This document shows positions 58,564-60,331 of a DNA stretch of 64,000 bases, in pieces; position 1 is the stretch's first letter, and every line of letters starts with the position of its first letter. The stretch spans positions 65,844,001 through 65,908,000 of the forward strand of contig OX597814.1 in NCBI GenBank assembly GCA_951406725.2, in the 5' to 3' direction. Under the pieces are notes generated by a model. That model saw only the letters and a list, made by a program, of their open reading frames with translations. It was not told the origin of the DNA and did not search any database. The position numbers were made by a program, and so were the translations under genes. Source of the DNA: Octopus vulgaris (Eukaryota).

Positions 58564-58606
<43 letters not shown>

Positions 58607-58795
58607 TACAAAATTAGAGAATGGAGAAACATACTTAAATCAGTAAAACATCAACTATCCGATGATACTCAATCCATACTTTAATACACCATTACATATG
58701 AGTAAAGGCAATATATAAAATGAAATGAGATATACAGTAATAGTAAAAAGATAAAGAGATATAAGTAAAAATTTCAAATATAATATGCAAATAAA

Positions 58796-58915
58796 TCAAA
58801 ACTGACAGCTGTTTCGGCAGTGAGGACAGTCATACCTCATTTAACCTATAAGCCATAAAGGCAGGTATAAATGAGGCATTAACAAGGATGCCCCACGGCC
58901 TCTTCAGAGAATTAA
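58796..58915 (-). ncRNA. Type I hammerhead ribozyme motif with extended stem II (mirror copy)
   Basis: Reverse complement of 59801-59920. Confidence 0.75.
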
Positions 58916-59248
58916 ATTAAATTTGTTATAATAGTGAAAAATATTATATAATCATATACATATAAATATAAAAATATAAAAATGTAAAATATAAAAACTT
59001 ATACATCATAATGCTACACTTATATAATATAATACACATTTGTACAAAAAAGGAAGGTAAACAGAACAAAATAAAACAAAATATATAACAGTGTATATAT
59101 TAATATTAATAAGTACCGATATTATACATATTTGGCTAATAGTTTTTTTTATAAAAAAAGGCTAACACATATGGAGATGAAAAATAATAATTAAATCCGT
59201 GGTACAGTTCATAAAGTTCTAAAGCTATAAAAGTTAATAAAAATTACT

Positions 59249-59306
<58 letters not shown>

Positions 59307-59410
59307 TAATAAAAATAGATACAGTTAAGTTAGCACCAAGTCCATCCTTTCGATCTTGAAAGGATGGACTTGGTGCTAACTTAACTGTATCTATTTTTAT
59401 TTTTTTTTTA

Positions 59411-59468
<58 letters not shown>

Positions 59469-59800
59469 AGTAATTTTTATTAACTTTTATAGCTTTAGAA
59501 CTTTATGAACTGTACCACGGATTTAATTATTATTTTTCATCTCCATATGTGTTAGCCTTTTTTTATAAAAAAACTATTAGCCAAATATGTATAATATCGG
59601 TACTTATTAATATTAATATATACACTGTTATATATTTTGTTTTATTTTGTTCTGTTTACCTTCCTTTTTTGTACAAATGTGTATTATATTATATAAGTGT
59701 AGCATTATGATGTATAAGTTTTTATATTTTACATTTTTATATTTTTATATTTATATGTATATGATTATATAATATTTTTCACTATTATAACAAATTTAAT

Positions 59801-59920
59801 TTAATTCTCTGAAGAGGCCGTGGGGCATCCTTGTTAATGCCTCATTTATACCTGCCTTTATGGCTTATAGGTTAAATGAGGTATGACTGTCCTCACTGCC
59901 GAAACAGCTGTCAGTTTTGA
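59801..59920 (+). ncRNA. Type I hammerhead ribozyme motif with ~85-nt stem II
   Basis: CTGAAGA 59809-59815; stem II 59816-59900 (ggc/gcc, gtgggg/cctcac, cctcattta/taaatgagg, acct/aggt, gcc/ggc); GAAA 59901-59904; palindromic stem III ACAGCTGT; GUC cleavage triplet ending 59912; weak stem I. Confidence 0.78.
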
Positions 59921-60284
59921 TTTATTTGCATATTATATTTGAAATTTTTTACTTATATCTCTTTATCTTTTTACTATTACTGTATATCTCATTTCATTTT
60001 ATATATTGCCTTTACTCATATGTAATGGTGTATTAAAGTATGGATTGAGTATCATCGGATAGTTGATGTTTTACTGATTTAAGTATGTTTCTCCATTCTC
60101 TAATTTTGTAGTATTAATTTACGGTAATATTATTACCTTTACCCATATAATACAATAGATGAACTGATTGTTTGACAATTTTTAACATCTATGTATTAAT
60201 TTTGTTGGGTACCTATCTAGCAGTATATTGGATATATATTATCCCATGGTGGGTTGAATTTTCAACCCCTATCTCATTTTATAA

Positions 60285-60331
<47 letters not shown>

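What the first reader, a model, noticed from the sequence alone, without database searches (positions are those of the whole stretch)
58603..60290. 1.5 kb palindromic, ribozyme-bearing non-coding element inserted in (TA)n
Seen: two ~750-bp arms with a 6-nt loop, a ~170-bp extension on the right only, (TA)n on both outer sides, no ORF, and a type I hammerhead motif in each arm. Established: Penelope-like elements carry hammerheads in their pseudo-LTRs and often have inverted 5' segments; non-autonomous ribozyme retroelements (retrozymes) exist. Inference: this is a young non-autonomous PLE-mobilised element integrated via a snap-back (self-primed hairpin) cDNA. A read-through transcript would be ~750 bp of dsRNA, a potential ADAR or Dicer substrate, with a hammerhead encoded on either strand. 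A fold-back sequencing or assembly artefact cannot be excluded from this locus alone.
Basis: partly seen in the sequence, partly recalled or inferred. Interest (0 to 1): 0.8.

Follow-up and report, generated by a model that had tools for sequence, protein, structure and literature searches.

The report
Head-to-head Penelope stub with edited hammerhead
This 1.5-kb hairpin is two head-to-head copies of the tail end of a very common repeat that carries a predicted self-cutting RNA motif, most likely a recent and ordinary insertion of a Penelope-type jumping gene; sequencing runs that are probably RNA show A-to-G changes in this repeat family, likely made by the editing enzyme ADAR, including one in the motif's catalytic core.

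Summary
In detail: arms of 749 and 757 bp with no substitutions, a 6-nt loop, a 172-nt right-only extension, (TA)n on both sides, and one type I hammerhead per arm. Public runs show a high-copy family, and both DNA runs laid show copies ending where the short arm ends, joined to (TA)n. This layout (inverted 5'-truncated copy, direct copy, one-sided tail, TA target) is the published footprint of endonuclease-positive Penelope-like elements. This scan noted it before on other DNA of this genome. Reads could not test the hairpin centre, so an artefact is unlikely but not excluded. 'Non-autonomous' and 'snap-back' are unproven. It is not a tandem retrozyme. Unusual features: an 85-nt helix II and a structured tail of 172 nt rather than 30-40 nt. 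Two probably-RNA runs carry 16 A-to-G sites across the hammerhead, including core A9; they are absent from one DNA run and at trace level at 2 of 16 sites in the other. This is likely ADAR editing at family level, not assignable to this locus. Edited Penelope RNA is already known in lizard. Verdict: real, young, a variant of a known kind.

The parts
58564..58605 (.). left (TA)n target tract; the last 3 nt also match the arm end (microhomology)
   Evidence: sequence, alignment
58603..59351 (-). inverted arm (749 nt): copy of the right arm ending at the family's short terminus, without the extension
   Evidence: the equivalent position 60112-60114 is joined to (TA)n in contigs of 2 of 2 DNA runs
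58788..58925 (-). type I hammerhead motif, left copy (core CUGAAGA at 58907, predicted cut after 58804)
59352..59357 (.). 6-nt loop at the head-to-head junction
   Evidence: not tested by reads
59358..60114 (+). direct arm (757 nt): 5'-truncated, AT-rich, UTR/pLTR-like end of a high-copy repeat, with an (ATT)n run near 59419-59466
59791..59928 (+). type I hammerhead motif, right copy: 2-bp helix I with looped extension, core 59809-59815, 85-nt helix II 59816-59900, GAAA 59901, palindromic helix III, predicted cut 59912/59913
59813..59955 (+). 16 A>G sites seen in two probably-RNA runs and almost absent from two DNA runs (family level; includes core A9 at 59815 and helix III A at 59906)
   Evidence: table 3
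60115..60286 (+). 172-nt one-sided extension (tail-like), structured, native to the family; its core near 60221-60255 is shared with diverged sister families
   Evidence: fold z = -3.8; depth, contigs and loose ends
60287..60406 (.). right (TA)n/(TATG)n tract

Best explanation
This is a young copy of the end of a high-copy, hammerhead-bearing repeat, laid down head-to-head inside a (TA)n tract, most likely in one insertion by the reverse transcriptase and GIY-YIG endonuclease of a Penelope-like element. Inferred mechanism: the endonuclease nicks (TA)n, and reverse transcription starts at the far end of the 172-nt tail (60286). It runs through the hammerhead and stops about 930 nt in. The second, inverted arm is then made from the same template, most simply by the cDNA 3' end folding back on a few complementary bases around the 6-nt loop and copying itself. 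It is resolved at the family's fixed short terminus (60112-60114) into the other (TA)n end. The copy codes for nothing. Its hammerhead is of the weak, dimer- or protein-dependent Penelope type and would be buried in any read-through RNA, so it is predicted inactive here. Family RNA that meets its complement (fold-back copies like this one, or antisense RNA) is likely A-to-I edited by ADAR.
For: Shown: anatomy. High copy number: 20 of 24 listed runs in 8 studies hold 71-86% of 86 sampled words, and 1453 and 494 contigs were laid in two DNA runs. Fixed short terminus: summed depth falls from 552,450 to 89,269 (X3) and from 171,518 to 50,936 (X16) across 60113/60114, with (TA)n loose ends in 3 and 2 contigs. 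The extension is family sequence, not unique flank: depth is 20,860-128,201 over 60114-60197 in the DNA runs, and error-free contigs cover 60085-60200, 60108-60229 and 60171-60288. Both arms come from one template: they share minority alleles (C at 59501, where all covering depth in 4 of 4 runs reads T; G at 60042; C at 60074). Published layout: an inverted 5'-truncated copy next to the 5' end, a one-sided tail, (TA)n bias and hammerheads in pLTRs (PMC8557442, passages); head-to-head palindromic junctions read as self-priming (PMC3846280, passages); small palindromic helix III, 2-bp helix I, opposite-strand pairs 100-700 bp apart and weak cleavage (PMC4209133, parts 1-2 of 4); two internal RT start sites that define the tail and a protein-assisted hammerhead (PMC11167929, parts 1-2 of 4). 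Editing: 16 of 16 substitution rows confined, or nearly confined, to the RNA-like runs are A>G, out of 24 rows in all.
Against: No RT or GIY-YIG sequence is linked to this repeat by any search: no PLE Pfam hit in the 145 of 358 window frames scanned, and no homologue for the 42-aa open frame in the tail. The tail is 172 nt, not the published 30-40 nt, and helix II is far longer than the 6-8 bp described. A pure snap-back does not by itself explain why the inverted arm stops exactly at the family terminus. The centre and outer junctions are untested by reads. Depth sums are not copy numbers. Editing caveats: RNA status is the tool's guess, no DNA of the same individuals was laid, the edited records are five by my depth matching and shallow (depth 2.2-3.7), 5'-G depletion is not significant (1 of 16 versus 6 of 33, P = 0.40), a UAG site at 59869 is unedited, and no antisense-arm (T>C) edits were seen.
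Confidence: 0.78

Rival explanations
1. Same origin, different chemistry: both cut ends of the (TA)n target primed reverse transcription on family RNA at two fixed internal start sites (60112-60114 and 60286), and the two cDNAs were joined head-to-head; there was no snap-back.
For: The inverted arm ends exactly at a family terminus. The Anolis PLE protein cuts and extends both strands, is predicted to be a dimer and starts at two internal sites (PMC11167929). Earlier scan notes describe two-armed insertions with two fixed ends (unchecked).
Against: Two independent cDNAs would rarely stop within 6 nt of each other unless the RNA has a fixed 5' end there. A 5-bp stem around the loop is only marginally stable as DNA (-1.2 kcal/mol), which neither proves nor excludes snap-back. 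A search for Penelope with twin priming listed 2 papers, neither on this by title or abstract.
Confidence: 0.3
2. The repeat is a dedicated non-autonomous family (a pLTR-only element, or a relative of a tandem retrozyme) mobilised in trans by a Penelope-like protein, rather than the truncated end of a coding element.
For: No ORF in 930 nt. The hammerhead-to-terminus part is several-fold deeper than the upstream part (X16: 33,000-172,000 versus 400-18,000). Earlier notes report a 492-493-nt long-helix-II retrozyme in this genome (unchecked), and 59795-60286 happens to be 492 nt. pLTR sequences suffice in trans (PMC3846280).
Against: No direct repeat or terminal redundancy inside the element (alignment scores within the shuffle range), and only one hammerhead per strand. 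The depth gradient is equally what 5' truncation of a longer element gives.
Confidence: 0.4
3. The whole palindrome was copied from an older palindromic source copy through a read-through RNA, rather than formed at this insertion.
For: It would explain why the left arm ends at a family terminus next to (TA)n. Earlier notes report fold-back RNAs written back into this genome (unchecked).
Against: No A>G scar on either arm (0 substitutions), although family RNA appears edited at about 30% of adenosines per molecule.
Confidence: 0.15
4. Fold-back read or assembly artefact: a single arm duplicated in silico.
For: Arm differences are only indels in A/T runs, the typical long-read error class. PLE ends are known to trouble assemblies (PMC8557442). 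The centre could not be tested.
Against: The flanks are not mirrored. The left arm stops at a terminus seen joined to (TA)n in independent DNA runs, and the right arm continues into genuine family sequence. An 8-nt difference near the centre is larger than a usual homopolymer error (judgement). A second, smaller fold-back with a one-sided extension lies next door.
Confidence: 0.08
5. The A>G clusters are not live RNA editing but a transcribed (or simply sequenced) genomic copy with fixed A>G changes.
For: All 9 sites of run X1 fall among the 12 sites of run X2 in the same span of 32 adenosines (P about 8e-6 under uniform choice). The neighbour preference is weak. Earlier notes report genomically fixed ADAR scars in this genome (unchecked). 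RNA status of X1 and X2 is a guess.
Against: Depth of the G allele is 0 at 16 of 16 sites in X3 (about 80% read) and 0 at 14 of 16 in X16 (whole run), where variants of depth 4-20 are otherwise listed. The pattern differs between records (59813 and 59837 only in X2; 59906 present in some records covering it and not others).
Confidence: 0.15

Closest known systems
Insertion units of endonuclease-positive Penelope-like elements (Penelope/Poseidon, Neptune, Nematis, Hydra): pLTR, adjacent inverted 5'-truncated copy, one-sided tail (PMC8557442 passages; PMC3846280 passages; PMC2377424 passages)
   Same: Head-to-head inverted copy, extension on one end only, hammerhead near the 3' end, microsatellite target with no visible target duplication, fixed 3' terminus.
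   Different: No ORF in this copy, so the clade is unassigned; the tail is 172 nt instead of 30-40 nt; the junction is almost perfectly symmetric over 748 bp.
Metazoan PLE hammerheads, D. virilis/rotifer/shrimp/mosquito variant (PMC4209133, parts 1-2 of 4 read)
   Same: Type I, 2-bp helix I, small palindromic helix III, G10.1-C11.1 pair, opposite-strand pairs a few hundred bp apart.
   Different: Helix II is an 85-nt branched rod rather than 6-8 bp; no bulged base after A9.
Anolis Poseidon element PAc (PMC11167929, parts 1-2 of 4 read)
   Same: Two alternative 3' ends; a structured region downstream of the hammerhead; AT-rich targets.
   Different: The PAc tail lies in the ORF start and its two RT start sites are described as adjacent; here the two ends are 172 nt apart and coding of the tail was not supported.
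Metazoan non-LTR retrozymes (PMC7229834 passages; bioRxiv 10.64898/2026.07.22.740005, part 1 of 5 and passages)
   Same: Non-coding, type I hammerhead, low GC, link to PLEs.
   Different: Retrozymes are direct tandem repeats with a hammerhead in each unit; this is an inverted pair with one hammerhead per strand and no direct repeat.
Hyper-edited repeats: lizard Penelope and frog palindromic Harbinger (PMC5625713, passages)
   Same: Clustered A>G in RNA of a Penelope-type, self-complementary repeat; octopus is among the most hyper-edited animals in that survey.
   Different: Here the edits can be placed on a hammerhead, including core A9; I found no paper on ADAR editing of a natural retroelement hammerhead in two searches (titles and abstracts only).

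Membership tests
EN+ Penelope-like element | Single ORF with PLE reverse transcriptase and GIY-YIG endonuclease | not testable with these tools
   This copy has no ORF; no genome was held, so longer copies could not be fetched; no PLE Pfam hit in 145 of 358 window frames scanned.
EN+ Penelope-like element | Hammerhead motif in the terminal repeat | tested here: met
   (0 of 1000 shuffles); cleavage itself untested.
EN+ Penelope-like element | Inverted 5'-truncated copy adjacent to the 5' end (head-to-head) | tested here: met
   orientation from the hammerhead strand.
EN+ Penelope-like element | Optional one-sided tail with two alternative 3' ends | tested here: met
   Short end at 60112-60114 joined to (TA)n in 2 of 2 DNA runs; the extension is family sequence. 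Whether 60286 is itself a family-wide end is less clear because it lies at the edge of the stretch laid.
EN+ Penelope-like element | Tail length 30-40 bp (typical, not universal) | tested here: not met
   172 nt. An additional end 30-40 nt into the extension is not excluded: only 24 of 136 loose ends were shown.
EN+ Penelope-like element | Microsatellite (TA)n target, target duplication not discernible | tested here: met
   (TA)n loose ends.
EN+ Penelope-like element | Dispersed copies with variable 5' truncation and a fixed 3' end | tested here: inconclusive
   The depth gradient fits, but loose ends at 59794-59801 show sister subfamilies with diverged upstream sequence, which would give the same gradient.
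Naiad clade of PLEs | Lack of a canonical hammerhead; N-terminal endonuclease | tested here: not met
   A canonical-order hammerhead is present. Of five 11-12-nt words of the element, four had no match in the Naiad/Chlamys/Hydra supplement of PMC8557442 and one had a single match in unrelated-looking sequence (words split by line ends would be missed).
Non-LTR retrozyme | Direct tandem repeats, at least two units each with a type I hammerhead on the same strand | tested here: not met
   No internal direct repeat; one hammerhead per strand. Tandem arrays of the family elsewhere were not testable.
Non-LTR retrozyme | Circular or monomeric RNA made by self-cleavage | not testable with these tools
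   Only contigs were available; they cannot show RNA ends.
MITE / fold-back DNA transposon | Symmetric terminal inverted repeats reaching both ends, with a target duplication | tested here: not met
   The right end extends 172 nt beyond the inverted arm, and single-arm termini occur family-wide.
ADAR hyper-editing | Clustered A>G in RNA, absent from DNA | tested here: met
   16 sites; G-allele depth 0 at 16 of 16 in X3 and trace at 2 of 16 in X16. RNA status is guessed and the individuals are not matched.
ADAR hyper-editing | 5'-G depletion at edited sites; edits on both strands of the duplex | tested here: inconclusive
   1 of 16 versus 6 of 33, P = 0.40; no T>C records, but an equally edited antisense molecule would pass the 88% filter only with probability 0.37-0.75.

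The most novel reading that the evidence does not exclude
The fold-back copies that this Penelope-type family makes as a by-product of insertion act as its own brake. Their read-through RNA, or its antisense arm, forms long duplexes with family RNA, and ADAR edits these at reproducible sites, including hammerhead core A9 and the palindrome needed for dimer cleavage, switching the ribozyme off. The family would also use an unusual 172-nt structured tail, with a core conserved across subfamilies, as its protein-binding element between two fixed reverse-transcription start sites.
Probability: 0.17. Interest if true: 0.62.

Novelty: new variant of a known kind. Interest (0 to 1): 0.33.

Why it matters
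As a locus it is ordinary retroelement debris. Its value is as a clean, very young record. Identical arms, a 6-nt loop and two ends 172 nt apart make the open question of how Penelope-like elements build inverted ends (snap-back versus priming from both target ends) testable by a genome-wide count. The family's RNA also appears to be edited inside its hammerhead, which offers a direct test of whether ADAR controls a natural retroelement ribozyme.

Tried and rejected
No whole genome was held, so copy number, other inversion points and an autonomous partner could not be examined directly. Hairpin centre: no reads could be laid on 59316-59482; the zero cover there is no evidence either way. No RNA holder is listed on record; X1 and X2 are RNA only by the tool's guess. 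Rfam: no match at gathering score in 64 kb, and one chance match at E = 7. Coding of the tail: a 42-aa frame is open from 60163, but no homologue reached E <= 10, no ATG is in frame, and by my reading the common variants give 2 silent and 3 amino-acid-changing codons; not supported. Pattern scans: 0 hits in metagenome contigs and viral contigs; the 30 hits of an 18-mer in prokaryotic genomes are in unrelated bacteria, were taken as chance and not examined. Terminal redundancy (circular template): none above shuffles. Target-site duplication: not discernible in (TA)n. Two co-folded hammerhead copies pair through the helix III palindrome, but with the core in an inactive register, so folding does not show an active dimer. 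My first descriptor missed bulged minimal hammerheads; a relaxed one found a further motif at 58080. Arkhipova et al. 2017 was not held. The mariner search gave no host name; 'octopus' rests on unchecked scan notes and on my recall of octopus SINEs. One search for long helix II hammerheads listed one review, whose passages describe none; bioRxiv supplements and subscription papers (for example Arkhipova 2006) were not seen and may describe long tails or long helix II forms.

Full report
Observation. Aligning the arms gives 58603-59351 against 59358-60114, with a 6-nt loop, 748 paired bases, no substitution and three indels (1, 1 and 8 nt), all in A/T runs. No other long non-simple perfect palindrome centre exists in the 64 kb. 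The right arm continues for 172 nt (60115-60286) before (TA)n, while the left arm abuts (TA)n directly. No frame of 150 aa or more lies in the element. Each arm carries one type I hammerhead: CUGAAGA at 59809, an 85-nt helix II, GAAA at 59901, a palindromic minimal helix III and a predicted cut after 59912. The descriptor hit 0 of 1000 shuffles, and helix II folds 5.4 standard deviations below shuffles. Rfam does not detect it. Since the hammerheads point outward, the arms are head-to-head.

Is it real, and is it a family? No genome was held, so I used public runs. Of 24 listed runs, 20 in 8 studies hold 71-86% of the 86 sampled words of 59470-60288. Laying contigs of two DNA runs on that stretch placed 1453 and 494 records: this is a high-copy family, though the depth sums are not copy numbers. 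Three results matter. First, depth drops across 60113/60114 (552,450 to 89,269 in X3; 171,518 to 50,936 in X16), and contigs ending there continue as (TA)n (3 in X3, 2 in X16). The point where the inverted arm ends is therefore a family terminus, not an accident of this locus. Second, the extension is family sequence: it stays deep in both DNA runs and is covered by error-free contigs. One of these, 60085-60200, has 30 letters left of the junction, one short of the tool's bridging rule. Loose ends at 60219-60221 and 60255-60256 that still resemble the window show diverged sister families sharing a core of about 36 nt. Third, the two arms share minority alleles, for example C at 59501 where all covering depth in 4 of 4 runs reads T, so both arms derive from one template. 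The flanks are not mirrored. The hairpin centre could not be tested, because no reads could be laid on 59316-59482, and short-read contigs cannot cross the (TA)n tracts. I put an artefact at about 8%.

What it is. The layout matches the published insertion unit of endonuclease-positive Penelope-like elements: an inverted 5'-truncated copy next to the 5' end, a tail on one end only, a (TA)n bias that hides target duplications, and hammerheads in the pLTRs (PMC8557442, passages). Head-to-head palindromic junctions were already read as self-priming in rotifer elements (PMC3846280, passages). The hammerhead resembles the D. virilis-type variant, with a 2-bp helix I and small palindromic helix III; opposite-strand pairs 100-700 bp apart are described in Schistosoma (PMC4209133, parts 1-2 of 4). 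In vitro, an Anolis element cuts AT-rich DNA on both strands and starts reverse transcription at two internal sites that define the tail, and its hammerhead cuts only with protein present (PMC11167929, parts 1-2 of 4). Two features depart from these descriptions: the 172-nt tail (structured, z = -3.8) and the 85-nt helix II. The defining RT-endonuclease ORF could not be tested, so I file it as working like a PLE insertion with clade unassigned. It fails the retrozyme test (no direct repeat), the Naiad test (canonical hammerhead present) and the MITE test (asymmetric ends). Earlier scan notes describe the same layout and long-helix-II hammerheads on other DNA of this genome; these are unchecked AI notes, and two sequence look-ups found no close look-alike.

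How it most likely formed (inferred). The endonuclease nicked (TA)n; reverse transcription began at the tail's far end and stopped near 59352; the cDNA end folded back across the 6-nt loop and copied itself; and the new arm was resolved at the family's short terminus into the other (TA)n end. The near-perfect symmetry of the junction favours this. The exact stop at a family terminus favours the rival, priming from both target ends at two fixed start sites. A 5-bp stem at the loop gives only -1.2 kcal/mol as DNA, and the native upstream sequence is unknown, so I put snap-back at roughly even odds within the Penelope reading. Non-autonomy is likewise open, because a truncated coding element also has no ORF.

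The RNA. In one search, 24 substitution rows were listed. Eight are ordinary variants present in DNA. The other 16 are all A>G on the hammerhead-sense strand, between 59813 and 59955 (16 of the 49 adenosines in 59794-59998), and are seen in runs X1 (9 sites) and X2 (16 sites) from two studies. G-allele depth is 0 at all 16 in X3 and 0 at 14 in X16, with traces at two sites (8.2 of 24,901; 3.8 of 35,611). The X1 record is a single 137-nt insert between adapter-like ends (adapter recognised from memory). Sites include core A9 (59815), position 7 (59813) and the helix III palindrome (59906). Site 59860 is unpaired in every monomer fold tried yet is edited in both studies, which suggests a long duplex partner. 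Against: RNA status is guessed; no DNA of the same animals was laid; the edited records are five by my depth matching, at depth 2.2-3.7, and not all of their differences are listed; 5'-G depletion is not significant (P = 0.40); a UAG site is unedited; and the overlap between studies is tighter than uniform editing predicts (9 of 9, P about 8e-6). No antisense-arm edits were seen, although a fold-back RNA should be edited on both arms; the 88% filter would pass such molecules only with probability 0.37-0.75, so this is weak. One edited record has an unaligned upstream part and may come from a sister subfamily. The editing is thus likely real at family level and cannot be assigned to this locus. 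Unedited contigs run through the predicted cut site: one of 437 nt identical to this copy at depth 46 in X1, and one of 221 nt in X2. Hyper-edited Penelope RNA is known from lizard, and octopus is among the most edited animals (PMC5625713, passages); ubiquitous editing of repeats is reported in squid (PMC9068888, passages). Two searches listed no paper on editing of a natural retroelement hammerhead (titles and abstracts only).

Ribozyme function here. The active fold lies 5.2 kcal/mol above the monomer minimum. Two copies pair through the palindrome but in an inactive register, and a read-through RNA forms a 749-bp duplex of about -1156 kcal/mol that would bury the motif. The palindrome supplies one hammerhead per strand, not the two same-strand copies a dimer needs. 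I therefore expect no self-cleavage from this locus; this is a prediction.

Verdict. This is a real, young, head-to-head stub of a high-copy Penelope-type repeat: a variant of a known kind, with two uncommon features and a credible lead on ADAR editing of its hammerhead. Interest 0.33.

Noticed in passing
window 58267-58562: A second, smaller fold-back: 79-bp arms (58267-58345 / 58440-58518, 1 mismatch) around an inner hairpin, with a 44-nt one-sided extension ending in the same (TA)n tract as the finding's left arm. It looks like another Penelope-type stub with a typical tail length; no canonical hammerhead was found in it.
   Followed up: partly
window 57945-58215, minus strand; core at 58080: A textbook minimal hammerhead (core, bulged A, 4-bp helix II, no loop 3) in a stub of about 270 nt between (TA)n tracts; so three probable Penelope-type ends sit in one (TA)n cluster.
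   Followed up: partly
window near 61271, plus strand: A degenerate minimal hammerhead of similar layout (one core change), seen by eye's printout; the relaxed scan did not list it.
   Followed up: no
window 18564-19864 and 61426-62750: Two broken mariner copies, 92% identical over 1327 nt, with Pfam PF01359 hits and 20 transposase homologues.
   Followed up: partly
window 60221-60255: A core of about 36 nt in the tail is shared with diverged sister families and is the deepest part in both probably-RNA runs; the tool warns that contig depth does not rank expression. It folds into two small hairpins.
   Followed up: partly
window 59676-60112: In run X1 a single 437-nt contig is identical to this copy, including alleles that are in the minority in one or both DNA runs, which suggests this copy belongs to a currently expressed subfamily.
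   Followed up: no
window 55639-55948 and 56544-56753: A repeat pair about 90% identical: 210 nt direct plus an adjacent 102-nt inverted piece, possibly another inverted-plus-direct insertion.
   Followed up: no
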